Virus genome (UHGV): UHGV-0117955
DNA length: 11,395 nucleotides
Reading direction: 5' to 3' (one strand)
From: a virus
Made by a program: the position numbers and the translations under genes
Shown here: positions 7 to 11,091 of the stretch, one piece after another
Layout: the number at the start of each line of letters is the position of its first letter
Numbering within the stretch: the first letter of the stretch is position 1
Notes under the pieces: model-generated
Told to the model about the DNA's origin: nothing
Seen by the model: only the letters and a program-made list of their open reading frames with translations
The model's database searches: none

Positions 7-702
7 ATGTTATATGCATTTAAGCTGGGCAGAAAACTGCGCGGCGAGGAACCTTGGTGCCCTGAAAAAGGCGGGAAAGGTGGTAGCTCTGATAAAAGTG
101 CAAAGTATGCCGCAGAAGCTCAGAAGTATGCAGCAGACCTGCAAAATCAGCAGTGGCAGACGATCATGAAAAACCTTGCTCCGTTCACGCCTCTTGCGGA
201 GCAGTATGTTAACCAGCTTCAGAACCTTTCCAGTTTAGAAGGGCAGGGGCAGGCACTTAACCAGTATTACAACTCTCAGCAGTACAAAGACCTTGCTGGT
301 CAGGCGCGCTATCAGAGTCTGGTGGCAGCGGAAGCAACAGGTGGATTAGGTTCCACCGCAACCAGTAATCAGTTAGCAACAATCGCACCAACTCTTGGCC
401 AGCAATGGCTATCTGGACAAATGAACAACTACCAGAATCTGGCAAATATTGGTCTTGGCGCTCTTCAGGGACAGGCAAACGCCGGGCAAACATATGCCAA
501 CAACATGAGCCAGATTTCACAGCAAAGCGCGGCACTGGCGGCGGCAAACGCTAATAGACCTTCCGGCCTTCAATCTGCAATAGGCGGGGCTGCCTCTGGA
601 GCAATTGCTGGAGCACAACTTGGCAGCATTGTTCCTGGTATTGGTACTGGTATTGGTGCCGCTGTTGGTGGCGGTCTTGGTCTGCTTGGCTCGTTGTTTT
701 AA
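7..702 (+). CDS. P22-type ejection (injection) protein, gp7-like
   Basis: ATG at 7; the frame is open to the window edge, so the true start could lie upstream. 231 aa, Gln/Asn/Ala-rich with a Gly-rich hydrophobic C-terminus (…GIGTGIGAAVGGGLGLLGSLF). Stop TAA at 700-702. Size and position directly upstream of the gp20/gp16-like genes match the first of the three P22 ejection proteins (about 229 aa in P22, from memory). Confidence 0.6.
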   Translation: MLYAFKLGRKLRGEEPWCPEKGGKGGSSDKSAKYAAEAQKYAADLQNQQWQTIMKNLAPFTPLAEQYVNQLQNLSSLEGQGQALNQYYNSQQYKDLAGQARYQSLVAAEATGGLGSTATSNQLATIAPTLGQQWLSGQMNNYQNLANIGLGALQGQANAGQTYANNMSQISQQSAALAAANANRPSGLQSAIGGAASGAIAGAQLGSIVPGIGTGIGAAVGGGLGLLGSLF

Positions 703-711
703 GGGGTAATC

Positions 712-2178
712 ATGGCTACTTGGCAAGGAACAAATGGCGGATTGTTGGCTGGTATCGGTGGGGTCAACTCAAACGCTCCGAGCGTAAATGAGATCGGCAA
801 TACGCTTCAGCTTATCAGGCAGAACAATGATATTGAGCGCTCAGGCGCTAACAATGTTGGACTGACGGCCTTGCAAGGTCTTTCAGGTATTGCTGGTGTT
901 TTTCAGCAGGAAAAGCAGGCTCAGCGGCAGAAAGAATTTCAGCAGGCATACGCTAATGCTTATGCGTCTGGTGATCGCGGTGCTTTGCGTCAGTTGGCTA
1001 CTCAATATCCAGACCAGATTGAATCCGTTCGTAAAGGCATGGGATTCATTGATGAAGACCAGCGCAATTCTATCGGCACCTTAGCGGCTGGCGCACGCCT
1101 TGCGGCCTCGTCTCCAGAAGCAATGCAATCATGGCTGCAAAACAACGCCAAGGAACTGACTCGCGTCGGTGTTGACCCTAACAGCGTTGCTCAGATGTAT
1201 CAGCAGAACCCTTCAGGATTTGGTGAGTTTGTTGATCACCTTGGGATGGCTGCTCTTGGTCCGATTGATTACTTCAATGTTCAGGACAAGATGGCTGGTC
1301 GTGAAATTGACCGAGGCAGGCTGGCAGAGACAATCCGCAGCAATCAGGCCGGCGAAGCACTTCAGGCGAGAGGGCAGGATATTAGCCGAGCAAATGCGTT
1401 AACGTCAGCATATGCACCAACAGCCGCAATGCAGAATTACAATCAGTACGCGCAAATGTTAAAGGCAGATCCAGATGGTGCAGCGGCATTTGCGGCAGCG
1501 GCGGGAATTAATCCCAATGCTAAGAAATTACTTAAGGTTGAAACCAATCCTGATGGCTCGGTAACTAAGTATTACACCGATGGCAGCGAGGAAGCCGGAA
1601 AACTAAACCAACCTATATCTGGTGATGGCATTAAACCAATTAGCTTGCCACAAGCGCAAAGCATCATAGATAAGGCTAATGAGGGTTCCAAGAAGGCGGC
1701 GGGATTTGCTTTGCGATTAAAAGATTCAATGGACTCAATGAATCAGCTTAGTAAAAGCATTGACCCTAAGCGAGTTGCATTAATAAATCGCTCTCTTGGT
1801 GATGGGACTATTGCAAATTTAAGCCTATCACCAGCGGAGCAGCAATATATGGTAAATGCGAGAGACGCCTTGTATGCAATTTTGCGCCCAGAAACAGGTG
1901 CAGCAATTACTCTGCCAGAGATGCAGGAGTATTCCAAAATGTACCTGCCTCAGCCCGGTGATTCCAAGGCTGCTACTGAAACAAAAATGCGAAAAATGCA
2001 GGGCCAATATAACTCATTACGTGGTCAGTCTGGTCGCGTTTATGATGCTTTGGTGGTTTCAAGTGCTGCAAATAGTCAACAACAGAGCAATAGCCAACAA
2101 CCGACAAATACCCAACAGAAGCAGAGTCAATCCGGATCATATACCTCAAAATCAGGCATTCAATTTACGGTGGAATGA
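712..2178 (+). CDS. P22-type ejection protein, gp20-like
   Basis: ATG at 712 preceded by AAGGGG (701-706). 488 aa, Ala/Gln-rich, with a Q/S-rich low-complexity C-terminus. Its stop overlaps the next start as ATGA (2175-2178), indicating translational coupling. Order and size fit the P22 7-20-16 ejection-protein trio. Confidence 0.6.
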
Positions 2179-4007
2179 TGAAAGTAACTGCAAACGGTAA
2201 GACATTTACCTTCCCTGATGGTACGAGCACGGAAGATATTGGCACCGCCATTGATGAGTATTTTGCTGGTCAGGCTGTTCAGCAACAAACAGTTAATCAG
2301 GCCAATAATGCACCAACACAGGAAGAACCATCATTGATGCAACAAGCTGGCGATTGGCTCACTGGTGGTCAAAGTGCAGGGCAAATTGCAGAACAGGCTG
2401 GTCGTGGTCTGGTAAACATACCATTTGACGTATTGCAGGGTGGCGCAAGTCTGATTAATGCAATCAGTCAGGGGCTTGGTGGGCCAAAAGTATTGGATGA
2501 TGTCTATCGTCCAGTCGATCGACCGACAGACCCTTATGCGCAAGCTGGAGAAACAATTGGCGGGTATTTAGTTCCAGGAGTTGGAACGGCAGGAAGCATG
2601 GCTATTGGATCACTGGCAGAGGCCGCAAATCAGAAAGGCGATTTCGCACAAAATGCAGCTAAAAATGCCGGAGTTAACCTTGCCGCTCAGGGTGTTCTTT
2701 CCGCAGCAGCAAAGGGAATAGGGCGTGGAATTACTGCTGTTCGTGGCGAAATATCACCAGCAGATCAGCAATTGCTCAAGCGTGCCGCTGCGGCAGATGT
2801 ACCAGTTATGACATCGGATGTAGTTCCTCCAAAAACAAAACTTGGCAATCAACTGCAGGGTTACTCAGAAGGAGTCATAGCTGGTACTGGACCAATGAGA
2901 GCCGCACAGCAGGATGCCAGAACCAAGCTTGTTAATCGCTTCACCGAAAAATACGGCGACTACGATCCATCTGTAGTCGTTGATAGTCTAAAGTCAGGCG
3001 TTGCAAGGGAAAAATCGTTAGCCAAGTCAAAACTAAACAACCTGTCAGGAAGAATGGTTGGAAAGCCAGTTGATACAAGTGGCGCCATAAGAGCCATCGA
3101 CGGAGCAGTAAACGAACTTGGGAAACTTAAAGGTGTTTCTGACACCCAGACCATTTCTGCGCTTAATGATTATAAGAATGCCATTCAGGAGATAACAAAT
3201 GGAGATGATGCCTTTGAGTTACTTGATAAGCTGAGAACTCAGTTCCGCATTGACGTAAAAGGCGATCGCACAGTTCTGCCATCAATGTCGCAAACAATGA
3301 TCAACAGGGTCTACAACTCGCTAACCAATAGCCTTAGTAAATCTATAGCGAAAGGACTTAGCCCAAAAGATGCTTCAGCATGGAGAGCGGGAAAAGCTGA
3401 TTATGCAAAAATGGCAACACATGCAACTCAAACGCGCCTTAAAAACGTTCTAAACAAAGGAGATTTAACTCCCGAGGCTGTAAATACCATTGTGTATGGA
3501 CAATATGGGTCAGATATAGCTCGATTGTACGGGAAACTCGATCAAAAAGGTAAAGACATGCTAAGGGCGGCATATATCAGCAAAATAGCTGACAAGGTAG
3601 GTGACAGCCCTCAGAAAATGATGACCGAGCTTGGCAAGCTGCAAAAACAAGCAAATGGTCAGGTGTTTAAAACTGTATTTGGTGGGAAGAACGGAAAAGA
3701 GATAGAGGGGATGTTATCTATTCTCGATGCTACCAAAAGAGCATCTGAGGCTAATGTTGTGACGAAGACTGGCATGACACTCGCGCCTTTGGTAAGGGTT
3801 ATTGGTAACCTAAAAACCGGAGGCGCGCTATTGGCTGGGGAAACAGGGATTGGCCTTATGTCGAGGGTTTATGAAAGCCCTATGGCTAGGAATGCGCTCT
3901 TACGTCTGGCAAACACTAAAGCTGGAACGCCAGCTTATGAAAGAGCGCTGAATAACGCCGCAAATGCCATCAGACCAATACTTGCCAATGATGCAACTGA
4001 TCGCTAA
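2175..4007 (+). CDS. P22-type ejection protein, gp16-like
   Basis: ATGATG start at 2175 overlapping the upstream stop. 610 aa, against about 609 aa for P22 gp16. Last gene of the ejection-protein trio, directly before the immunity region as in P22. Stop TAA at 4005-4007. Confidence 0.65.
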
Positions 4008-4028
4008 GGGTTGATGTCATGGATGTTG

Positions 4029-4667
4029 TTAATTGCGAATGGAATCGCGGAACTCTTTACTTGATAGAAAAGGATCTGTTCTCCTTAACTCATCATAGTT
4101 TTTATTAAACTTTCTTGCTTCACCTGGGTATCTGTTGAACAAAACATTGCAGAAAAAAGAGAGCAATAACTCACATATGAATGCTAATACCCTGAAAAAT
4201 AAAGGTATAAAAAGAAGGGAAGGTTCATTGAAGTCTCTATTCCAAACAAAATAGACAATCATCCCGACATACCAAATTGATATCCCTATACTGATGATTG
4301 TTCCAACAGAGGTAACTACGACCCCGATTAAGTCGGACAGTCTGTTTGCCAGTAACTCATTTGAGTATCTTGCAATCATATACCGCCAACATTTTGCAAT
4401 ATCATCCTGATCTGTAGAGTCTTCTGGAATAGCTAGGCTTCTACATATTGAAGTAGCTCTTTTTTTCTCAACTCTTTTTGAGAGCCATCCATTAAAGAGA
4501 TACATCAACACCTGCGTTGCTATTCCTGCACCAAGTGATATCAAAGACATCCCAAAAAATCGCCATCCTGGAGATAGCGACTGGTACTGCCAAACAAAAA
4601 AAATTAAAAAACCCAATGAGCCTATGACATAGGCTGATGTATCGCTATATATATCTATTTTTTTCAT
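4029..4667 (-). CDS. Integral membrane protein (four predicted TM helices) in the sieA position; candidate superinfection-exclusion protein
   Basis: The track ORF 4029..4700 begins with GTG and has no Shine-Dalgarno sequence. The in-frame ATG at 4667 is preceded by AAGGAG (4677-4681 on the - strand) and is the preferred start, giving 212 aa. Four long hydrophobic segments (YVIGSLGFLIFFVWQY; FFGMSLISLGAGIATQVLMYLF; LIGVVVTSVGTIISIGISIWYVGMIVYFVW; LLFIPLFFRVLAFICELLLSFFCNVLF) separated by charged loops. Markedly AT-rich compared with the flanking structural genes. It lies directly downstream of, and on the same strand as, the Mnt-like gene, where P22 carries sieA. The functional call is positional only. 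Confidence 0.45.
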   Translation of the reverse strand: MKKIDIYSDTSAYVIGSLGFLIFFVWQYQSLSPGWRFFGMSLISLGAGIATQVLMYLFNGWLSKRVEKKRATSICRSLAIPEDSTDQDDIAKCWRYMIARYSNELLANRLSDLIGVVVTSVGTIISIGISIWYVGMIVYFVWNRDFNEPSLLFIPLFFRVLAFICELLLSFFCNVLFNRYPGEARKFNKNYDELRRTDPFLSSKEFRDSIRN

Positions 4668-4717
4668 TGAGTAGCCACTCCTTAGTTTTGAGCAGAACAC
4701 CGGATGATAATGTTTTG

Positions 4718-4969
4718 TTATGTGTCTTTTGGGATTCTATCCAGTAACTCGTTGGAAATTTTATCAAGTAAAGATTTTATTTGTTTAAGATCTAATGATT
4801 TGTCTACTGATGAGACGTCAGATGATAACGCATCCTCAAGAATTTGAACTATCTCTGAGTTCATAGATCGACCGTTTCGTTTAGCCCTTTCCGCAATAGC
4901 ACTACGCATGCCGTCAGGCATTCTAACCGTAAATCTTTCTATGAAATTTGATTCGTCTTTTTCTGACAT
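4718..4969 (-). CDS. Mnt-like ribbon-helix-helix repressor (copy 1)
   Basis: The translation contains FTVRMPDGMRSAIAERAKRNGRSMNSEIVQILEDALS, closely matching the N-terminal ribbon-helix-helix region of P22 Mnt/Arc (FNFRMP…ANGRSMNSELLQIVQDALS, recalled). The track ORF starts at 5017 with a hydrophobic leader that would overlap the promoter; the preferred start is the internal ATG at 4969, giving 83 aa (P22 Mnt is 83 aa). Stop TAA at 4718-4720. Confidence 0.7.
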   Translation of the reverse strand: MSEKDESNFIERFTVRMPDGMRSAIAERAKRNGRSMNSEIVQILEDALSSDVSSVDKSLDLKQIKSLLDKISNELLDRIPKDT

Positions 4970-5018
4970 TTTCTTATTCGCAAGGCATATGAGCAATAAA
5001 AAACACAGTAGCATCATA

Positions 5019-5079
5019 TTGACATTATGAGCAATGGCATCATAATGGTGTCATGACATCATGGTGATGTCATTATGAC
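5019..5079. promoter_or_regulatory. Divergent overlapping promoters with palindromic operator-like sites (Pant/Pmnt-like)
   Basis: Rightward promoter: -35 TTGACA (5019-5024), 16-bp spacer, -10 CATAAT (5041-5046). Candidate leftward promoter on the - strand: -35 TGACAC (5053-5048), 17-bp spacer, -10 CATAAT (5030-5025). Perfect 10-bp palindrome TGTCATGACA (5049-5058) at the predicted rightward transcript start. Perfect 11-bp palindrome GTCATtATGAC (5069-5079). Repeated TGACAT/ATGTCA half-sites at 5020, 5054 and 5067. The architecture mirrors the overlapping Pant/Pmnt and operators of P22 immI. Confidence 0.55.
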
Positions 5080-5089
5080 GGAGATATTG

Positions 5090-5266
5090 ATGATGAGCGA
5101 TGTTCTTTACAGTGGTCGTAAAAGTCAGAGTTTCCAGCTTCGTTTGCCAGCGCGAATGAAGGAGGAGATCAGACGCGTAGCTGAAATGGATGGAATTTCT
5201 ATCAACTCTGCGATTGTGCAGCGACTGGCTAAAAGCCTGAGAGAGGAAAGAGCTAATGCCCAGTAA
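5090..5266 (+). CDS. Arc-like ribbon-helix-helix repressor
   Basis: 58 aa from ATG 5090, with GGAG (5080-5083) 6 nt upstream; the track ORF start at 5075 has no Shine-Dalgarno sequence. The motif SFQLRLPARMKEEIRRVAEMDGISINSAIVQRLAKSL matches the Arc/Mnt fold (P22 Arc is 53 aa, with FNLRWP…NGRSVNSEIYQRV). It sits directly downstream of the TTGACA/CATAAT promoter. Confidence 0.7.
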   Translation: MMSDVLYSGRKSQSFQLRLPARMKEEIRRVAEMDGISINSAIVQRLAKSLREERANAQ

Positions 5267-5339
5267 AAATAGTGAAGCCCGGAAGTGCGCGAACACAAAC
5301 CGGGCCTCTATGTCAGTAACCGTACCCAAGGAAACTAAC

Positions 5340-5978
5340 ATGAATATTGTAGCAAAATCAGATTATAACTTCCAAGGATTCACTTTTAACCCTGTAACAG
5401 AGGGCGGGTCTATCTGGTTCACCTCCGCCGAACTAGCTAAGGCTCTCGGCTATAAAAAAACTGATGCCATCAGCCAAATTTATGCCCGTAATGCTGACGA
5501 ATTTTCCGACTCAATGTCATTGACCCTCAATATGAAGGTCAACGGAATAAACAATAGCTTACGTAACAAATCGGTCAGAGTTTACTCGCTCCGAGGCGCT
5601 CACTTGGTGGCGATGTTTGCTTCTACGCCCAAGGCCAAAGAGTTCCGCCGCTGGGTGCTGGATATTTTGGATCGGCAGGCAGAATGCTCACCGATTGCAA
5701 AACAGTTTACTGACGAAGAACTGGTTAATCTCTGCTACTTACAATTGTGGATGGAGAAGAGTCAACAAATGTGCAAACACATCTACCCAGGAATGAAGCA
5801 AATTGGTTCTGAGCTTTCAGGAAGGATTTACGATATTGCATATGAGACTCGCTACATGTCAGAAGAAACCAAGAAATCACTTCTTCGTGAAATGAAGAAT
5901 CTTGATACCAACAATTTTGTCGTAAAGAACGCTCAGCCAATGCTGGCAAAACTGCGCGGCGAGGAATGGATTCATTGA
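5340..5978 (+). CDS. Bro-N domain antirepressor-like protein
   Basis: ATG at 5340 preceded by AAGGAA (5327-5332). The N-terminus (FQGFTFNPVTEGGSIWFTSAELAKALGY) looks like a Bro-N/antirepressor N-terminal domain. An alternative upstream ATG at 5256 overlaps the arc stop and is considered less likely. Stop TGA at 5976-5978. Confidence 0.6.
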   Translation: MNIVAKSDYNFQGFTFNPVTEGGSIWFTSAELAKALGYKKTDAISQIYARNADEFSDSMSLTLNMKVNGINNSLRNKSVRVYSLRGAHLVAMFASTPKAKEFRRWVLDILDRQAECSPIAKQFTDEELVNLCYLQLWMEKSQQMCKHIYPGMKQIGSELSGRIYDIAYETRYMSEETKKSLLREMKNLDTNNFVVKNAQPMLAKLRGEEWIH

Positions 5979-5982
5979 TTGG

Positions 5983-6028
5983 TGCGCCGGACGGCGCAAA
6001 AAGAAAACCGCCAGTGTGCTGCTGGCGG
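5983..6028. other. Two GC-rich intercistronic stem-loops
   Basis: Hairpin 1: TGCGCC-ggac-GGCGCA (5983-5998). Hairpin 2: CCGCCAG-tgtgctg-CTGGCGG (6008-6028), a 7-bp stem with a 7-nt loop. An A-rich run (5998-6007) lies between them, so on the - strand hairpin 2 is followed by TTTTCTTTT and resembles an intrinsic terminator facing leftward. Confidence 0.5.
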
Positions 6029-6066
6029 CCTATGTCACACCCTTACTACCACATAAGGAATGCCTA

Positions 6067-6795
6067 ATGACTTTTAAGAATGTAGCAAACATCGGATCCG
6101 TTGTCACGGATAAAACCATTGATAGCCAGTACCTGTTAGAGATGGTCAATCATGCTCGTAGACATTGCGGGGAAAAAGAAGTCCGCAATAACGACTTTAT
6201 TGCACGCATTAAGGATGAACTTGAAGGTGAGCACTACGAAATTTTCGTAGTTCAAAAATCAAACAAGACAACTTCTGAAAAAGTTGTTATGTCAATTAAG
6301 CAAGCCCTTCGAGTGGCTGCTCGTGAATCTAAAGCTGTTCGCCGCTCACTTGTAGACCAACTTGAAAGTATGCAAGAAGCGCACATTAAAAGCGGTAAAT
6401 CGTCGAGTGGACTTGTTGAGTATCGCCAGGCGCGAACATTGAAAATGACGGTTGAAGCTGTTACCAATCTGTTCGATTTGATGCCAAATCTTGCGCCGGA
6501 AGCAAAGCAGACTGCGGCAGCAAGCATAATCAACCCGATCGTTGGTTTTAATGCAATACCTCTTCCAGCAATAGAAGAGCATTACTACTCAGCAGGGGAG
6601 GTTGCAGAGCAGCTTGGAGTAACGGCCAACAAGATTGGTCGCATTGCTAACGCAAACAACCTCAAAACTGAGCAGTACGGTAAGTTCTTCCTGGATAAAT
6701 CTGCGCATTCCAGCAAACAGGTGGAAGCATTCCGCTACAATGCGGAAGGTGTTAAAGCACTACAACACCTGATTCATGGGAGTAATGTTGCATAA
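6067..6795 (+). CDS. Antirepressor-like protein (possible AntA-like N-terminus and KilA-C/ANT-like C-terminus)
   Basis: ATG at 6067 preceded by AAGGAA (6055-6060); the track ORF begins at a GTG at 6016. 242 aa. The C-terminal segment YYSAGEVAEQLGVTANKIGRIANANNL resembles the helix-turn-helix-like core of phage KilA-C/ANT domains, and the N-terminal part (…NDFIARIKDEL…) loosely resembles AntA-type domains. Domain calls are from memory and need an HMM search. The gene sits where ant sits in P22 immI. Confidence 0.4.
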   Translation: MTFKNVANIGSVVTDKTIDSQYLLEMVNHARRHCGEKEVRNNDFIARIKDELEGEHYEIFVVQKSNKTTSEKVVMSIKQALRVAARESKAVRRSLVDQLESMQEAHIKSGKSSSGLVEYRQARTLKMTVEAVTNLFDLMPNLAPEAKQTAAASIINPIVGFNAIPLPAIEEHYYSAGEVAEQLGVTANKIGRIANANNLKTEQYGKFFLDKSAHSSKQVEAFRYNAEGVKALQHLIHGSNVA

Positions 6796-7016
6796 TGGCA
6801 AAGAAAAAATATGGCATTATGCCGCCAAGAATCAAAGGAAGAGCCAGGGTAAAAGGCGATGCTGGAAGGTATCACATTCTTGGAGTTCTGTGGCATGAGA
6901 GAGCTTTAATTTTAAGTAGACCTCATGGGTACATTGAAAAGGTATCTATAGATAGAGTAGAGATTCTTCCCCTTACACCTGAAGAAGAAGAAACGTACGG
7001 ACTTTTTGATAACTAA
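6795..7016 (+). CDS. Hypothetical small protein (73 aa), translationally coupled to the upstream gene
   Basis: TAATG stop/start overlap at 6793-6797. GGGAG at 6778-6782. Basic N-terminus (MAKKKYGIMPPRIKGRARVKGD) and acidic C-terminus (TPEEEETYGLFDN). No recognisable motif. Ends just before the terminator at 7024. Confidence 0.5.
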   Translation: MAKKKYGIMPPRIKGRARVKGDAGRYHILGVLWHERALILSRPHGYIEKVSIDRVEILPLTPEEEETYGLFDN

Positions 7017-7023
7017 CCAACTA

Positions 7024-7047
7024 AACCCGCTTAATCGCGGGTTTTTT
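7024..7047. terminator. Intrinsic terminator between convergent genes
   Basis: AACCCGC-ttaatc-GCGGGTT stem-loop (7024-7043) followed by TTTTTT on the + strand. It lies between the stop of the 73-aa ORF (7016) and the convergent mnt-like gene, whose last codons and stop (7031-7033) are encoded within the stem. Confidence 0.7.
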
Positions 7048-7288
7048 CTTTTCTAAGGATATCAGCCACAACTTCTTTTACTCGTTCCGAGATTAATGAG
7101 GCCAGCCTCTCTTCTTCATCGCGATGCCCGCTTACAGGTGATGGTTTGGAGAGTGATTCTTCCATCGTAGCCACAATTTCGGAATTGATAGACCTGTTAT
7201 TCATTTTTGCACGTTGCTTAATCTTAGCGTGCAACTCGTGCGTAAGCCTCAAGTGGAACTGCGCCTCATCGTATTTGCTGTACATCAT
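7031..7288 (-). CDS. mnt: Mnt-like ribbon-helix-helix repressor (copy 2; the closer match to P22 Mnt)
   Basis: The translation MMYSKYDEAQFHLRLTHELHAKIKQRAKMNNRSINSEIVATMEESLSKPSPVSGHRDEEERLASL… aligns along its length with P22 Mnt as recalled (…FNFRMP…ANGRSMNSELLQIVQDALSKPSPVTGYRNDAERLA…). 85 aa from ATG 7288, with GAGG 5 nt upstream on the - strand. The track ORF (7031..7684) extends 132 codons further upstream across the tailspike start and is treated as a spurious extension. Confidence 0.8.
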   Translation of the reverse strand: MMYSKYDEAQFHLRLTHELHAKIKQRAKMNNRSINSEIVATMEESLSKPSPVSGHRDEEERLASLISERVKEVVADILRKEKTRD

Positions 7289-7420
7289 CAATGCCTCACC
7301 AAATGGGTGGAATGGCATCGTAAAACCTACTGTACAAATCAACAATCGTACCATTTCGGTATGCAATAAACGCCAACCGTAGCCATGCTGCGGCGATTCC
7401 TTGTATCTGGAGCAAATTAA

Positions 7421-10153
7421 ATGACAGACATTACAGCTAATGTTGTAGTGAGTATGCCTTCGCAACTCTTCACTATGGCTCGTTCTTTTAAAGCCGTAGC
7501 TAATGGCAAAATTTATATCGGTAAAATTGACACTGACCCTGTAAATCCTGAAAACCAGATTCAGGTTTATGTGGAGAACGAAGACGGTTCTCACGTTCCT
7601 GTTGCACAGCCAATCGTCATTAATGCTGCTGGATATCCGGTATATAACGGGCAGATTGCCAAATTCGTAACTGTGCAAGGCCATTCTATGGCTGTATATG
7701 ATGCGTATGGCACGCAGCAGTTCTATTTCCCTAATGTGCTGAAGTATGACCCGGATCAGTTACGGCAGCAATTAGAAGATCCTGATGGTGCTAAAAAATA
7801 CCCTGAATTACAGATTGCACGATGGCGGGATGATAAAGACGTTCGCGGGTGGGGGGCGGATGACTCTGGGAATAGAGATTCAACACAGGCTTTTCTTGAC
7901 GCCGCATCTAGCGCAGGAAAGAGTGGTTTGGTTCATGTGCCTTCTGGTGAGTTTATAGTTGATGCATCGAAAATAGATATTTCACGCTTCTCCGGTGATG
8001 GTGTTCTAATCAGTAATGGTGTTCGCATTTCTGTTAATCCGCCGATGCAAAGTTTCTCCATTGGACAAAGAAAACTTGCGACCCTGAATTTTGGTGATGA
8101 TATCAATGCGCCAACTATATATGCGAATGCACAAAATGCATTGCAGGGAATAGCTTGTGTAAGGCATGAAGGTATTGAGAAGGTTTTTATCACTCAACAG
8201 GTTGGAGGTTCTAACTGGGGAAAGGACACCCTCACAAGGATCAGTGAGTGGCACTATACAAGCGATGGTTCAACTCTTTATGTTGTGACATTTACAGAGC
8301 CATTGCCTCTTGGTCACGGTTCAGATCTTTCTGCCACAATAGAGAACGGTGAACTATATCTGTTTACAACAACAATTGCTGAGACTGGTTCCTCTCTAGG
8401 AGGGAAGGGGTATTCAAAGACAAAATGGAAAGGGGCATCAACATCTGCTGAAGATATAACTCATTACCGAGTATTTGGTGAGCCGGGTGATAATAATCTG
8501 ATTAACCTTGCGCAGCGGGCAAGTATTTGTGTATCTAATGATGGGCGATATGTCATATTAATTGCGACATCAAACGCTGGGACTGGCCGCTTTTTATACG
8601 TATATGATCGCAAAGAAGTGGAATCTTCTTCTAACCCAATGAAAGTTAGACCGATTAATGGTCCTGTTCCACTTGTCCGTGGTAAAGGTCAGTATGGTGC
8701 AACACTTCAGGGTATTACATCAGATAGCAGATATATTTACACAATTTGGGGTGGCGTTCCTGCAAGATGCGTAAGGACAGTACAGATTTATGATATGGGT
8801 GGTACGCTAATACGTTCATTTCCTGTATCACTTGCCGCATCACTTTATACAGAGACTCAGTTAAATGGTTCTGACTCTAAAATCGGAGTTCCGGTTAGCT
8901 TTGAGCCTGAAGGGCTGGCAATAAGAGGTGATGAACTTGTCTGTGGTGCTATGGATGTATGGAAAAGCGCAGGGGATGTTGTAAGCCATCGTGGTAAAAA
9001 TTGGGTAAGTATTGTTACTGGTGATAACAAGGGAAATCTTCCGACAAACAGGTCTTATTGGTTAAAAACATCGCTTGCAGCGACAAGTGGTGAATGGGAT
9101 TCAGGCGCAACATATAAATCAGGTGATTATACTCGCAGAAATAAGCATCTGTTTGGAATAGCAAACCTGTCTGATATTCTTGGCAACCATCCAGTGCATG
9201 GTGCAGAATCCGATCCGTATACCGGAACCGCGCATCAATATTATGCTGGAACTGATATCGCCTTTAACCGTGAGCACGGTTCATTTACTATTGCGATATT
9301 TGACGAAGCCATTGGAGAGTATACCAAATCCCTCGAGTTGAATTATGGAAATAACCTTAACCTGTTTGATACAGATTACGGACATGACAATAATTCATGG
9401 GTAAGTACGAAAGCAGTATTCGACTCAAACTTTCGAGGTATGCAGTTCCGTTCTAAAGATGGGAATACTGCGGGTGGTGCTTATATTGATATCCATGCTG
9501 CTGATTGTCCATCTGCGGCTGGTGAGTTGATACTTGCCTCTACAGATGGAGGTGTCGTCAGACTTAAGCAGGGGAATGTAACAGTATTTTCTGCGACTAA
9601 AGATACTACATCGACATGGGCGACGACGACATTAAGGCCAACAACTGATAACCAGGTATCACTTGGAAGGTCCGTTAACCGCTTTTCTCAGGTCTACGCA
9701 GGGACTGCAACTATAAATACATCTGATGCAACAGAGAAAACGGAAGTCAGAACTCTTTCCGATAAAGAGCAGGCGGTTGGGTTAGCTCTTGTTGATGAAA
9801 TTGGTTTTTATCAATGGCTTGATAGTGTAAAAAATAAGGGAGCTGATGCCAGACTTCATGCCGGACTTACGGTGCAACGGGCAATGGAAATATTCAGAGA
9901 GAATGGACTTGATCCATTTAAATACGGAGCGATCTGCTATGACAGATGGGATGCATATGCAGATACAGATCCTGCTATTTATGATGATAAAGGTAACCTT
10001 GTTCGTGAGGCTATAACTATTACGCATGAAGCAGGAGAACGCTATGCATTCAGAAATGATGAATTACAGTATCTAATGATTGCTGCATTAGGTATACGTC
10101 AGAAAAATATTATAAAGAGGATTGAAGAACTGGAAAATAAGCTTGCAAATTAA
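7421..10153 (+). CDS. Tailspike protein: P22-type N-terminal head-binding domain fused to a divergent receptor-binding/depolymerase body
   Basis: GGAG at 7409-7412, ATG at 7421. The first ~115 aa ([11 protein letters not shown]…[39 protein letters not shown]…[13 protein letters not shown]…NVLKYDPDQ) are near-identical in pattern to the N-terminus of P22 gp9 as recalled. The rest (about 795 aa, against 667 aa total in P22) is unlike the P22 endorhamnosidase body. The last ~142 aa resemble a C-terminal intramolecular chaperone module: a TSD motif at Ser768 (nt 9722-9724), then [20 protein letters not shown] and a terminal coiled-coil-like [14 protein letters not shown]. Confidence 0.85.
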
Positions 10154-10308: not shown

Positions 10309-11019
10309 TTATTGTTTTTCTTTTGTTAGGTTCCAATATTCACTTGTGGTTTTTATGGAGTCCTTATTAGGCTTTACATAAGGTTTATGTATGGAGAGAT
10401 GAGGTCTTTCCCAGGCAATGTCTTTTTTTATTACTCTTGCTGGAACTCCTGCTGCAATAGAGTTATTTGGGACGTGTCCTTTAACAACAGCTGCATAGCC
10501 AATAACACTACCACTTTCGATTTCTGCACCACCAAGTATTGCCGCTCGGCGGCCAACCCAGACATGACTTCCAATATAAATAGATTTTGGCATATTTATA
10601 CGTTCACCTGTTACTACACTAAAAATAGGGTGGGAGTCATCAGTTTTAACTTCATTTCCACTTGAAAACATGCAGTCATCGCCAATAATTATGCTTGAGT
10701 TTTCTACAGCAGAAATCATACCTTTACCAGTGCAAGTGAAATCAGAGCCTATTTTTATGGAGGAATTCTCACCCACTCTTATATGGGCTTGTATACCTTT
10801 GTTTGCGATATGGCATGGGCCAATTTCAAAATACCCATTGTTGCAGTCAAAATATATCTCAAAATATTTTAATGATGCATCTTTATGAATGATAAGTTTA
10901 TTATTAGATCCTCTAAACTGAATTAGTTTGACGTCACAACTACCTTCGTACTGGATCTCATTACCCATTTCATCAGAATACTTCTCTGCTTTTGTTAAAA
11001 CAACTTTTCTAATTTTCAT
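10309..11019 (-). CDS. Hexapeptide-repeat (left-handed beta-helix) acyl/acetyltransferase; candidate lysogenic-conversion enzyme
   Basis: The C-terminal half carries typical hexapeptide-repeat motifs (IGDDCMFSSGNEV…IYIGSHVWVGRRAAILGGAEIESGSVIGYAAVVKGHVPNNSIAAGVPARVI). Strongly AT-rich relative to the structural genes. The track ORF begins at a TTG (11043); the first ATG is at 11019 (MKIRKVVL…), and neither has a strong Shine-Dalgarno sequence, so the start is uncertain. Stop TAA at 10309-10311. Confidence 0.75.
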   Translation of the reverse strand: MKIRKVVLTKAEKYSDEMGNEIQYEGSCDVKLIQFRGSNNKLIIHKDASLKYFEIYFDCNNGYFEIGPCHIANKGIQAHIRVGENSSIKIGSDFTCTGKGMISAVENSSIIIGDDCMFSSGNEVKTDDSHPIFSVVTGERINMPKSIYIGSHVWVGRRAAILGGAEIESGSVIGYAAVVKGHVPNNSIAAGVPARVIKKDIAWERPHLSIHKPYVKPNKDSIKTTSEYWNLTKEKQ

Positions 11020-11091
11020 ATTATCAATAAGTAAAAAATGCAAATGAAAATTTCAAATTTACATTATCTGGCGAGGTAATGCAACACGGAT

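What the first reader, a model, noticed from the sequence alone, without database searches (positions are those of the whole stretch)
4718..7288. Composite immunity-I-like region with two Mnt-like repressors bracketing an expanded arc-ant operon
Canonical P22 immI is mnt(leftward)-arc-ant(rightward). Here the Arc-like gene is followed by three rightward genes (a Bro-N protein, a second antirepressor-like protein and a coupled 73-aa ORF) and the locus is closed by a second, convergently oriented Mnt-like gene (7031-7288). The copy just upstream of arc (4718-4969) shares only the ribbon-helix-helix core with P22 Mnt, while the distal copy matches along its length. This suggests a mosaic insertion or duplication, with two repressors of possibly different operator specificity controlling antirepressor output.
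Basis: partly seen in the sequence, partly recalled or inferred. Interest (0 to 1): 0.6.

Follow-up and report, generated by a model that had tools for sequence, protein, structure and literature searches.

The report
Composite antirepressor region, P22-like prophage
Between the DNA-ejection and tailspike genes of an E. coli P22-like prophage, a complete antirepressor control module of the kind found in long-tailed phages sits beside a separate, self-contained Mnt repressor cassette; this is a recurring mosaic of known parts, not a new kind of system.

Summary
The window has three ribbon-helix-helix (RHH) genes: 4718-4969(-), 5093-5266(+) and 7031-7288(-). They surround three rightward genes: a Bro-N/P22AR_C antirepressor, a 242-aa antirepressor-like protein and a coupled 73-aa ORF.

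- The two Mnt-like genes are not duplicates (about 27-30% identity).
- I found no sign that they jointly control the antirepressor promoter.

The left unit is one cognate set. It comprises the 83-aa RHH, Pant with two 21-bp operators, an Arc-like gene, a candidate sar-like antisense RNA and ant. The regulator-operator part recurs in Hafnia/Obesumbacterium long-tailed prophages, and related versions occur in Salmonella ones (SPN3UB).

The distal gene is a true Mnt homologue. It keeps its own Pmnt-like promoter and a conserved palindrome, TACC-N5-GGTA, at the position of the P22 mnt operator. That palindrome occurs once in the window and once in each of two whole phage genomes. The same cassette stands alone next to the tailspike gene in Sf101, and phages L and ST64T carry a similar one.

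One natural genome carries the exact deletion 4868-7189, which fuses the two genes.

The layout is in 25 of 5426 complete E. coli genomes and in a Citrobacter. The region is the published, fast-changing 'ant moron', and CUS-3 already has two annotated mnt genes. Interest is modest.

The parts
4029..4700 (-). SieA-like superinfection-exclusion gene (context). It lies 51 nt downstream of the proximal RHH gene on the same strand. PGAP places the start at 4667.
   Evidence: PHROG 7745 'SieA-like', E=2.4e-20. PGAP gene in UTAK-1.
4718..4969 (-). Proximal 83-aa RHH repressor, the positional analogue of Mnt. It has an RHH domain plus a C-terminal heptad helix. Its recognition strand is ERFTVRM.
   Evidence: Pfam Arc 1.4e-17. 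A conserved family of 81-84 aa. AF2 helices at 21-32, 36-49 and 61-77. Hafnia homologues with the same recognition residues carry the same operators. PGAP's pseudogene call is probably an artefact of comparison with longer relatives.
5013..5040 (-). Leftward promoter-like site for the proximal RHH gene (ATGCCA-16-TATGAT), back to back with Pant.
   Evidence: Consensus scan, 9 of 12 matches. This is a consensus match only.
5019..5046 (+). Pant-like rightward promoter, TTGACA-16-CATAAT.
   Evidence: 11 of 12 matches to consensus. It has the same layout as P22 Pant.
5034..5054 (.). Operator O1, a 21-bp imperfect palindrome (ATGGCATCA-TAA-TGGTGTCAT) overlapping the -10 hexamer. This is the position of P22 Oarc.
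   Evidence: Two mismatches to the O2 pattern. Two matches in the window against 0.01 expected. Conserved in Hafnia and Obesumbacterium loci.
5053..5073 (.). Operator O2, a perfect 9-3-9 palindrome (ATGACATCA-TGG-TGATGTCAT) over the predicted transcription start. This is the position of P22 Omnt.
   Evidence: In Hafnia the arms are conserved and the spacer differs. Loci with a different divergent repressor have a different palindrome at this position.
5093..5266 (+). Arc-like 57-aa RHH gene, first gene of the rightward operon. Its recognition strand is SFQLRL.
   Evidence: Pfam Arc 1.1e-11. Alignment with P22 Arc and SPN3UB gp20.
5266..5389 (-). Candidate sar-like antisense RNA unit. It comprises a promoter TTAAAA-16-TATAAT (5389 to 5362), an RNA of about 90 nt crossing the ant start codon and Shine-Dalgarno sequence, and a terminator hairpin at 5277-5305 followed by a U-run.
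   Evidence: Promoter scan, 10 of 12. Fold -32.8 kcal/mol, z=-5.0. SPN3UB and CUS-3 have a hairpin of different sequence at the same place. No Rfam match. This unit is inferred.
5340..5978 (+). Antirepressor Ant (Bro-N plus P22AR_C domains).
   Evidence: Pfam. PHROG 245, 2.9e-50. About 95% nucleotide identity to SPN3UB gp21.
5994..6107 (-). Possible second antisense unit over the ribosome-binding site of the 242-aa gene. It comprises a promoter-like site GTGACA-17-TACATT (6107 to 6079) and a terminator-like hairpin at 6031 to 6005 with a T-run.
   Evidence: The fold z-score is only -2.1. Weak and speculative.
6067..6795 (+). 242-aa antirepressor-like protein. The model has an N-terminal alpha/beta domain, long helices and a C-terminal MerR-like winged helix.
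   Evidence: PHROG 1726, 4.5e-100. AF2 pLDDT 72.9. PDB hits to RacA, BldC and MerR DNA-binding domains, best E=0.07 and therefore weak. BFVD 'Antirepressor/KilAC' hits to 4e-10. 2102 homologues in Enterobacterales, none with a Pfam domain.
6795..7016 (+). 73-aa ORF translationally coupled to the 242-aa gene; function unknown.
   Evidence: PHROG 4977 over the full length, 5.5e-54. ATG overlaps the upstream stop.
7023..7044 (+). Intrinsic terminator of the rightward operon. It overlaps the 3' end of the convergent mnt gene.
   Evidence: 8-bp G+C-rich stem followed by TTTTTCTTTT.
7031..7288 (-). Distal Mnt, a true homologue of P22 Mnt. Its recognition strand is AQFHLRL.
   Evidence: 1MNT residues 7-79, E=4.6e-16. 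PHROG 795 over the full length, 1.4e-32. GGTGAGG Shine-Dalgarno sequence 5 nt before the ATG. dN/dS 0.028 against VSe13 and 0.063 against the Citrobacter copy.
7317..7345 (-). Pmnt-like promoter, TTGTTG-17-TACGAT, at the position of P22 Pmnt (TTGAGA-17-TATCAT).
   Evidence: Alignment A2 with the P22 mnt-arc control region. Sequence read. The scan threshold was not reached, so this is inferred from positional homology.
7348..7362 (.). Candidate operator of the distal Mnt, GTACCATTTCGGTAT (TACC-N5-GGTA core), at the position of P22 Omnt.
   Evidence: Unique in the window and in the whole JEP4 and VSe13 genomes. The full TACC-N5-GGTA core is intact in 8 of the 9 class-C (Q-H-R) loci across E. coli, Shigella, Salmonella and Serratia, and the Citrobacter copy has one arm mismatch. 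H-N-R and Q-N-R Mnt classes carry GGTCCAC and AGACCAC palindromes at the same place.
7367..7420 (+). Conserved 'boundary sequence' upstream of the tailspike gene, shared by P22, CUS-3, HK620 and epsilon34.
   Evidence: CUS-3 annotates it as bsq1.
7421..10153 (+). Tailspike gene (context): P22-type head-binding domain plus a C-terminal endosialidase-chaperone domain.
   Evidence: Pfam Head_binding 1.1e-66 and Peptidase_S74 1.9e-7.

Best explanation
The 4.7-7.4 kb stretch is one variant of the 'ant moron' of P22-like phages. It is built from two independent regulatory units.

Unit 1 (about 4718-7044) is a self-sufficient antirepressor module.
- A divergently transcribed 83-aa RHH repressor acts as the maintenance repressor, as Mnt does in P22. 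It most likely binds the 21-bp palindromes O1 and O2, which cover the -10 hexamer and the start site of a strong Pant-like promoter.
- The first rightward gene is an Arc-like RHH, the likely autoregulator.
- A short antisense RNA, made from a promoter inside the 5' end of ant, probably damps ant translation as sar RNA does in P22.
- The operon then encodes a Bro-N/P22AR_C antirepressor, a second antirepressor-like protein and a coupled 73-aa protein. It ends at the terminator at 7023-7044.

Unit 2 (7031-7366) is a 'solo mnt' cassette.
- It holds a true Mnt homologue with its own Pmnt-like promoter and its own operator, TACC-N5-GGTA. The cassette is what a P22-type mnt/Pant control region looks like with arc and ant missing.
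- This Mnt most likely acts only at its own site, either autoregulating or modulating rightward transcription into the tailspike gene. It probably does not act on Pant, 2.3 kb away.

Because the two mnt-like genes lie in direct orientation and share a conserved core, they can recombine. That deletes Unit 1 and leaves a chimeric solo mnt.

Shown: gene content, homologies, conservation of the palindromes, the natural deletion derivative and purifying selection. Inferred: who binds where, the promoters, the antisense RNAs and what the distal Mnt regulates.
For: Unit 1 is a cognate set.
- Hafnia and Obesumbacterium prophages carry an 82-aa RHH with the same recognition strand (ERFTVRM), an Arc-like protein with SFQLRL, and the same two operators. 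The arms are conserved (CATCA-N3-TGATG) and the spacer is free.
- Salmonella long-tailed prophages and SPN3UB have the same gene order: RHH(-), Arc, Bro-N Ant, a second gene and a small ORF.
- The palindrome at the Omnt position changes whenever the divergent repressor changes. It is TTGGTTCTAGAACCAA with a 127-aa RHH although the Arc-like protein is the same. It is AAGGCAATTTGCCTT in Citrobacter.
- Promoter and operator geometry matches the annotated P22 Pant, Oarc and Omnt.
- The proximal protein is under purifying selection, including its C-terminal helix. Synonymous sites are saturated against the Salmonella homologue, while dN is 0.11 for the RHH part and 0.34 for the C-terminal part.
- Antisense unit.

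Unit 2 is independent.
- Alignment A2 shows homology of 7289-7366 to the P22 mnt-arc control region.
- Three recognition-residue classes go with three palindromes at one position.
- The motif is unique in the window, in JEP4 and in VSe13.
- The cassette occurs alone in Sf101 and L018. It sits beside an unrelated 140-aa gene in 720R6 and beside a truncated antirepressor remnant in VSe13. ST64T and ST160 also carry a solo mnt.
- It stays unchanged beside three different left regulators.
- dN/dS is 0.03-0.06.

Recombination: locus L011 equals window 4678-4867 joined to window 7190-7762.

Literature: the region is the 'ant moron', with ten types in sixteen genomes (PMC2629481). A solo mnt in phage L is discussed as a remnant or as a gene with a new function (PMC8022706).
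Against: - No binding, transcript or phenotype data exist for any component here.
- L008 and L009 keep an identical Arc-like protein with a different operator set. The target of the Arc-like protein, and the assignment of O1 and O2 to the two proteins, are therefore unresolved.
- The Pmnt-like promoter and the relic rightward promoter at 7312-7336 are weak by consensus and fell below the scan threshold.
- The class-C palindrome is imperfect in the window (5 of 8 symmetric pairs in the 17-bp frame).
- PGAP calls the proximal gene a pseudogene.
- Rfam finds no sar homologue.
- A distal Mnt site that is degenerate or non-palindromic within Pant cannot be excluded by motif search.
Confidence: 0.62

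Rival explanations
1. Dual control. Both Mnt-like repressors act on the antirepressor operon, through different operators or by heteromeric or looping interactions, giving two inputs to Ant output.
For: - Both genes are intact and conserved together in 25 complete E. coli genomes, and the same layout occurs in a Citrobacter, though its distal mnt carries a stop codon.
- Both have Mnt-like architecture with C-terminal helices.
- A natural chimera shows that the C-terminal domains are interchangeable.
- The Pant region holds at least two operator-like sites, and possibly three.
Against: - The distal class-C palindrome has no copy in Pant.
- O1 and O2 travel with the 82/83-aa RHH plus Arc pair in Hafnia prophages that lack any distal mnt.
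- The distal cassette is unchanged beside three unrelated left regulators and operators, and it also occurs without ant.
- A strong terminator separates the operon from the mnt control region.
- Strain 980-2 lacks distal mnt and the 73-aa ORF but keeps the left unit.
Confidence: 0.12
2. The distal mnt is a functionless relic of a degraded P22-type immI region. It is carried along because it lies between the moron insertion slot and the tailspike gene.
For: - The phage L paper raises this possibility for solo mnt (PMC8022706).
- The Citrobacter copy has TAC to TAG at codon 5.
- E. coli 980-2 has lost the gene.
- The relic rightward promoter is degenerate.
- In the Kapi1 lysogen, mnt was not detectably expressed, although Kapi1 has a P22-type layout (PMC12922286).
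Against: - dN/dS is 0.028-0.063 with synonymous sites near saturation.
- The ORF is intact in E. coli, Shigella, Salmonella and Serratia.
- The Shine-Dalgarno sequence, the Pmnt-like hexamers and the palindrome are conserved at the same spacing even where the flanks have diverged, as in Serratia L017.
Confidence: 0.15
3. The two Mnt-like genes arose by tandem or segmental duplication within this phage lineage and then diverged.
For: Same fold, same length (83 and 85 aa), same strand, and a shared NGRS(M/I)NSEIV core.
Against: - They are only about 27-30% identical.
- Each has much closer relatives elsewhere. The proximal is 55-79% identical to RHH proteins of long-tailed prophages. The distal is 88-96% identical to solo mnt genes and 47% identical to P22 Mnt.
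- Their flanking control regions are unrelated.
Confidence: 0.03

Closest known systems
P22 immunity I region (mnt / Pmnt-Pant-Oarc-Omnt / arc / sar / ant)
   Same: - Same genomic slot between gene 16 and gene 9.
- A divergent RHH repressor.
- A strong rightward promoter with one palindrome between -35 and -10 and another at the start site.
- An Arc-like first gene.
- An antisense promoter and terminator pair at the ant ribosome-binding site.
- A terminator before the tailspike gene.
   Different: - The divergent repressor is not the Mnt orthologue.
- The true Mnt orthologue lies 2.3 kb away, convergent with the operon, and has its own operator.
- Ant has a Bro-N domain instead of the P22_AR_N domain.
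- There are two extra downstream genes.
- No Rfam sar match.
SPN3UB gp19-gp23 and related antirepressor modules in the tail regions of long-tailed enterobacterial prophages
   Same: - Same gene order: RHH(-), Arc(+), Bro-N Ant, a second gene and a small ORF.
- Ant is about 95% identical at nucleotide level to SPN3UB gp21.
- The Hafnia and Obesumbacterium versions share the repressor recognition residues and both operators.
   Different: - These modules lie in long-tailed phage genomes and lack any distal mnt.
- The second gene there is ORF6N-type rather than PHROG 1726.
- SPN3UB gp19 is 108 aa with different recognition residues and different operators.
'Solo mnt' ant morons of phages L, ST64T and ST104, and of Sf101, 720R6 and VSe13
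   Same: The distal cassette (mnt, Pmnt, an Omnt-position palindrome and the boundary sequence) lies directly upstream of the tailspike gene and is transcribed divergently from it (PMC2629481; PMC8022706).
   Different: Here an entire antirepressor module lies just downstream of the 3' end of mnt. L and ST64T belong to another recognition class, Q-N-R with an AGACCAC palindrome.
E. coli HS-1 prophage and phage JEP4 ant morons
   Same: The right-hand part is near-identical (94-97% nucleotide identity): ant, the 242-aa gene, the 73-aa ORF, the terminator, mnt(-) and the tailspike gene. HS-1 is drawn in Fig. 3 of PMC2629481.
   Different: Their left regulator is a helix-turn-helix (C2-like) repressor with a different small first gene. 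They therefore have one RHH 'Mnt-like' gene, not two. HS-1 also carries an IS3 insertion.
Phage CUS-3 ant moron
   Same: It holds two annotated mnt genes in one ant moron. One is P22-Mnt-like and the other is divergent.
   Different: In CUS-3 the two genes are tandem neighbours on the same side of ant. They do not bracket the operon, and its ant is a different gene.

Membership tests
P22 Mnt repressor family (distal gene 7031-7288) | RHH N-terminal domain plus similarity to P22 Mnt through the C-terminal tetramerisation region | tested here: met
   PDB 1MNT aligned over residues 7-79, E=4.6e-16. PHROG 795 over the full length, 1.4e-32. 46.6% identity to P22 Mnt.
P22 Mnt repressor family (distal gene 7031-7288) | Gene divergent from arc-ant, with the operator overlapping the Pant start site | tested here: not met
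   The gene is convergent with the ant operon. Its control region faces the tailspike gene. No operator copy lies at Pant.
P22 Mnt repressor family (distal gene 7031-7288) | Palindromic operator next to its own promoter that co-varies with the N-terminal recognition residues | tested here: met
   Three classes were found: H-N-R with GGTCCAC, Q-N-R with AGACCAC, and Q-H-R with TACC-N5-GGTA. All lie at the same aligned position across 15 loci.
P22 Mnt repressor family (proximal gene 4718-4969) | Sequence similarity to Mnt beyond the RHH core | tested here: not met
   1MNT aligned only over residues 12-52. 33% identity to P22 Mnt. Best PHROGs are 1287, 3178 and 7906, although PHROG 795 also scores 9.7e-21 over residues 2-75.
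P22 Mnt repressor family (proximal gene 4718-4969) | Mnt-like architecture: RHH, linker and a C-terminal helix able to oligomerise | tested here: inconclusive
   AF2 gives a helix at 61-77 after a low-confidence linker. The heptad pattern and conservation hold across an 81-84-aa family. A natural chimera joins it to the distal N-terminus. Oligomeric state cannot be tested here.
P22-type immI circuit (Unit 1, 4718-7044) | Divergent maintenance repressor, an Arc-like first gene, and two operators at Pant | tested here: met
   The geometry matches the annotated P22 features. Binding itself is not testable here.
P22-type immI circuit (Unit 1, 4718-7044) | sar antisense RNA homologous to the Rfam sar family | tested here: not met
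   No Rfam match at E<=1. A positional analogue exists: promoter, hairpin and U-run, fold z=-5.0.
P22-type immI circuit (Unit 1, 4718-7044) | Antirepressor of the P22 Ant family (P22_AR_N plus P22_AR_C) | tested here: inconclusive
   P22AR_C is present (2.6e-13), but the N-terminal domain is Bro-N and not P22_AR_N. PHROG 245 'Ant' scores 2.9e-50. Inactivation of a C2-type repressor was not tested.
'ant moron' of P22-like phages (Villafane et al. 2008) | Variable, independently expressed gene set between the gene 16 and gene 9 homologues inside the late operon | tested here: met
   gp16 homologue at 2175-4007 and tailspike gene at 7421-10153. Definition taken from PMC2629481.

The most novel reading that the evidence does not exclude
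The solo-type Mnt cassette, conserved across genera, may not be a relic. It could be a dedicated regulator of transcription entering the tailspike gene, acting as a roadblock or by promoter interference between the operon terminator and gene 9. In addition, the direct-repeat arrangement of two mnt-like genes could make the whole antirepressor module a recombination-excisable cassette. Lysogen populations would then carry both ant-plus and ant-minus prophage forms.
Probability: 0.15. Interest if true: 0.5.

Novelty: new variant of a known kind. Interest (0 to 1): 0.3.

Why it matters
Antirepressor modules decide whether a prophage can be induced, or cross-induced by another phage, without the SOS route. 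This locus shows how such a module moves as a complete unit between long-tailed and P22-like short-tailed phages. The unit includes its repressor, operators, Arc-like gene and candidate antisense RNA.

It lands beside an older Mnt cassette, and it can be lost again by recombination between the two repressor genes.

Two practical results follow. The three-class table of Mnt recognition residues against operator sequences gives a ready set of natural specificity variants for the well-studied Arc/Mnt DNA-recognition problem. The PGAP 'pseudogene' label on the proximal repressor is probably wrong.

None of this changes current understanding of the P22 immunity I region, and the region was already known to be hypervariable.

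Tried and rejected
- Rfam search of 3900-7600 at E<=1 found nothing, so there is no sar family member.
- Pfam, NCBIfam and PDB sequence searches gave nothing usable for the 242-aa and 73-aa proteins.
- Foldseek against the PDB gave only weak hits to MerR-like winged-helix domains, best E=0.07.
- The scan of genome contigs with the Mnt alignment returned only 6 loci, too few for statistics.
- I looked for the distal operator motif in Pant, in the 5979-6066 spacer and across two whole phage genomes. No copies were found beyond chance.
- I tried to assign O1 and O2 to the Arc-like and the 83-aa protein using the L008/L009 recombinants. This failed: they share the Arc-like protein but not the operators, which left the Arc-like target unresolved.
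- A rightward 'relic Pant' driving the tailspike gene was considered. Its hexamers (ATGGCA-15-TACAAA) are too poor to assert this.
- My first dN/dS run against the Citrobacter copy was out of register and was discarded. It was redone.
- Duplication origin was rejected on identity and on nearest relatives.
- The upstream extensions of the ORFs at 4718-5017, 5256-5978, 6016-6795 and 7031-7684 were rejected. The grounds were Shine-Dalgarno positions, PGAP calls and homologue lengths.

Full report
**What the window is.** The window carries P22-type ejection genes (gp7, gp20 and gp16 homologues at 7-4007). A SieA-like gene follows on the minus strand at 4029-4700. The region in question comes next, followed by a tailspike gene with a P22 head-binding domain (7421-10153) and a hexapeptide acyltransferase gene (10309-11043, minus strand). 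Near-identical DNA (99%) occurs in E. coli chromosomes. The window is therefore part of a P22-like (Lederbergvirus) prophage of E. coli. The finding lies in the slot between gene 16 and gene 9. Villafane et al. named this slot the 'ant moron' and described it as being in rapid flux, with ten types in sixteen genomes (PMC2629481).

**Observation check.** Three genes score as Arc-family RHH proteins:
- 4718-4969(-), E=1.4e-17
- the first rightward gene, E=1.1e-11
- 7031-7288(-), E=9.8e-15

The three rightward genes after the Arc-like gene are:
- an antirepressor with Bro-N and P22AR_C domains (PHROG 245 'Ant', 2.9e-50)
- a 242-aa protein matching PHROG 1726 'anti-repressor' over its full length (4.5e-100)
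- a 73-aa ORF (PHROG 4977, unknown function) whose ATG overlaps the preceding stop codon

The 242-aa protein has no Pfam or NCBIfam domain. Its AlphaFold model has mean pLDDT 72.9. The model matches BFVD proteins named Antirepressor or KilAC down to E=4e-10. It also matches, weakly, MerR-like winged-helix domains in the PDB. 'Antirepressor-like' is therefore fair at the level of fold and annotation only.

The distal RHH protein aligns with P22 Mnt (PDB 1MNT) over residues 7-79, E=4.6e-16. The proximal one aligns only over residues 12-52, E=2.5e-7. Shine-Dalgarno positions, PGAP annotation of near-identical genomes and homologue lengths shift three starts. The Arc-like gene starts at 5093, ant at 5340 and the 242-aa gene at 6067.

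**The left unit is a complete, cognate immI-like module.** Between the proximal RHH gene and the Arc-like gene lies a near-consensus promoter, TTGACA-16-CATAAT, at 5019-5046. Two adjacent 21-bp palindromes follow:
- O1 at 5034-5054, with two mismatches, over the -10 hexamer
- O2 at 5053-5073, a perfect ATGACATCA-TGG-TGATGTCAT, over the predicted start site

The window holds two matches to this pattern, against 0.01 expected by chance. This is the geometry of the annotated P22 Pant, Oarc and Omnt.

The proximal protein is not a truncated pseudogene, although PGAP labels it 'missing C-terminus' in strain UTAK-1. It belongs to a family of 81-84-aa proteins found in Salmonella, Citrobacter, Hafnia, Obesumbacterium and Cronobacter. 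These share a conserved C-terminal amphipathic helix. AF2 predicts RHH helices at 21-32 and 36-49 and a third helix at 61-77. Against the Salmonella homologue, synonymous sites are saturated. dN is 0.11 for the RHH part and 0.34 for the C-terminal part.

These relatives sit in the tail-gene regions of long-tailed prophages. There the order is RHH(-), Arc(+), Bro-N antirepressor, a second gene and a small ORF. The Hafnia and Obesumbacterium loci are the most informative. They have the same recognition strands (ERFTVRM and SFQLRL) and the same two operators, with conserved arms (CATCA-N3-TGATG) and a different spacer.

Where the divergent repressor differs, the palindrome at the O2 position differs too:
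- TTGGTTCTAGAACCAA beside a 127-aa RHH in E. coli MB06231 and MDR_56
- AAGGCAATTTGCCTT in a Citrobacter prophage
- GTTAAC-containing repeats in SPN3UB

I therefore assign O1 and O2 to this module's own repressors. How they divide between the 83-aa protein and the Arc-like protein is unresolved. MB06231 and MDR_56 keep an identical Arc-like protein yet lack O1 and O2.

**Candidate antisense RNA.** Inside the first 50 nt of ant, on the minus strand, there is a promoter-like site, TTAAAA-16-TATAAT (5389 to 5362). The arc-ant spacer holds a hairpin that, read on the minus strand, is followed by a U-run. The predicted RNA of about 90 nt covers the ant start codon and Shine-Dalgarno sequence. It folds at -32.8 kcal/mol, z=-5.0. 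SPN3UB and CUS-3 have a hairpin of different sequence (GAAGCCC...GGGCTTC) at the same place. This copies the position and logic of P22 sar, as annotated. It is not a member of the Rfam family. A weaker promoter and terminator pair brackets the ribosome-binding site of the 242-aa gene.

**The distal gene is a separate, self-contained Mnt cassette.** The 80 bp upstream of distal mnt align with the P22 mnt-arc control region (alignment A2). TTGTTG-17-TACGAT on the minus strand (7345 to 7317) corresponds to P22 Pmnt, TTGAGA-17-TATCAT. At the place of the P22 mnt operator lies GTACCATTTCGGTAT (7348-7362).

Across 15 loci the palindrome at this position tracks the recognition residues of the adjacent Mnt:
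- H-N-R (P22) with GGTCCAC-G-GTGGACC
- Q-N-R (720R6, ST64T, ST160) with AGACCAC-N-GTGGTCT
- Q-H-R (the window, JEP4, HS, VSe13, Sf101, L011, L018, and Serratia and Citrobacter prophages) with TACC-N5-GGTA; the Citrobacter copy has one arm mismatch

The strict motif occurs once in the window and once in each of the complete JEP4 and VSe13 genomes, always beside mnt. It is absent from Pant.

The cassette lies directly upstream of the tailspike gene in several phages:
- Sf101 and Escherichia sp. E1V33 (L018) have no ant gene.
- 720R6 has an unrelated 140-aa gene beside it.
- VSe13 has a truncated antirepressor remnant beside it.

It is also unchanged in JEP4 and E. coli HS, where the left regulator is a helix-turn-helix protein. 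dN/dS is 0.028 against VSe13 and 0.063 against the Citrobacter copy. The gene is therefore maintained by selection. However, the Citrobacter copy has a fresh stop at codon 5, and strain 980-2 has lost the gene.

The phage L paper already notes a solo mnt that 'could have acquired another function or be a remnant' (PMC8022706). Villafane et al. note that Mnt and Arc may influence read-through into the tailspike gene. My reading is that the distal Mnt acts only at its own site. The rightward 'relic Pant' there is too degenerate to call a promoter.

**A natural deletion derivative.** One database protein, P0015, has the distal N-terminus joined to the proximal C-terminus. Its contig reads gp16, a 62-aa ORF, the chimeric mnt and then the tailspike gene. 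At the DNA level it equals window 4678-4867 joined to window 7190-7762. The crossover lies in the short homology within the codons of the shared RS(M/I)NSEI core. This matches the product expected from recombination between the two directly oriented mnt-like genes. It removes 4868-7189, which is the whole antirepressor operon and its control region. The event shows that the two genes are recombination partners. It also gives one route from composite to solo-mnt morons.

**How common, and how new.** Twenty-five of 5426 complete E. coli genomes carry at least 80% of 4700-7420. In 23 of these the annotation lists three Arc-family genes. The other two (MB06231, MDR_56) also have three, but their proximal repressor is the 127-aa RHH, outside the matched stretch. 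Many more genomes carry the right-hand part with other left regulators. A Citrobacter prophage has the same layout at about 65% protein identity.

None of P22, ST64T, HK620, epsilon34 or Kapi1 has this layout. Sf6 is reported to lack an ant moron altogether (PMC2629481). The components, however, are all described:
- the hypervariable ant moron (PMC2629481)
- solo mnt (PMC8022706)
- the HS-1 version of the right-hand part (drawn in Fig. 3 of PMC2629481)
- CUS-3, whose GenBank record annotates two mnt genes in one moron, as tandem neighbours rather than bracketing the operon

**Verdict.**
- The 'mosaic' reading is right.
- 'Duplication' is wrong.
- 'Two repressors jointly controlling antirepressor output' is not supported by the comparative evidence, although only binding experiments can exclude it.

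This is a new variant of a known kind and is of modest interest. The most useful by-products are the table of Mnt recognition residues against operators, the natural deletion junction, and the likely mis-annotation of the proximal repressor as a pseudogene.

Noticed in passing
window 5994-6107 (-): A second antisense promoter-like site (GTGACA-17-TACATT) and a terminator-like hairpin with a T-run bracket the ribosome-binding site of the 242-aa gene. This mirrors the sar-like unit at ant. The fold z-score is only -2.1.
   Followed up: partly
L004 5318-5470 (E. coli UTAK-1) and L010 2318-2470, equivalent to window 4817-4969: PGAP annotates the proximal RHH gene as a pseudogene 'missing C-terminus'. 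The 83-aa form is a conserved family with a selected C-terminal helix, so the call is probably an artefact of comparison with longer relatives.
   Followed up: yes
L011 5001-5246 (GCA_050033335.1 contig JBAOXA010000007.1): A chimeric mnt gene with the distal N-terminus and the proximal C-terminus. It marks an exact deletion of window 4868-7189 and leaves a solo mnt next to the tailspike gene.
   Followed up: yes
L016 6001-6255 (Citrobacter sp. Res13-Sevr-PEB04-36): The distal mnt homologue carries TAC to TAG at codon 5 in an otherwise well-conserved gene (dN/dS 0.06). This is either a recent inactivation or a sequencing error.
   Followed up: partly
L023 3506-3987 (CUS-3 'bsq2 boundary sequence'): The region annotated only as a boundary sequence holds three features ahead of ant. 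They are an unannotated Arc-like ORF (MKVKTLRMPEKLEKILEEKAKEECRSFSAEVIKRVL...), a Cys-rich small ORF, and the same GAAGCCC...GGGCTTC hairpin as in SPN3UB. The 2008 statement that CUS-3 lacks arc may therefore need revision.
   Followed up: partly
L001 7159-7400 (phage JEP4): Homology to the P22-type tailspike gene stops 12 nt after the conserved ATG. The annotated tail spike starts 190 bp further on with an unrelated, AT-rich 5' region. JEP4 therefore seems to lack the standard head-binding domain at this position.
   Followed up: no
L007 3179-3469 (phage VSe13): The 97-aa 'antirepressor protein' is a C-terminal fragment of an SPN3UB gp22-like (ORF6N-type) gene lying next to mnt. An antirepressor module was probably once present there and has since decayed.
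   Followed up: partly
window 7421-10153 and 10309-11043: The tailspike protein combines the P22 head-binding domain with a C-terminal endosialidase-type intramolecular chaperone domain (Peptidase_S74). A hexapeptide-repeat acyltransferase gene follows on the opposite strand in low-GC DNA (32-37%). It is likely a surface-polysaccharide modification (lysogenic conversion) gene.
   Followed up: no
L002 4495-4715 (P22, between ant and gene 9): The boundary sequence ATTCACCGTAGCCA(C/T)GCT occurs twice in P22, flanking about 100 bp that contains a hairpin. The window has a single copy at 7367-7420.
   Followed up: no
L008 2400-2530 and L009 2373-2505: These loci encode an Arc-like protein with the same recognition strand, near-identical to the window's (two N-terminal differences), but behind a completely different promoter and operator region. 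The crossover with the window lies at about 5070-5099. The DNA target of this Arc-like protein is therefore unexplained.
   Followed up: partly
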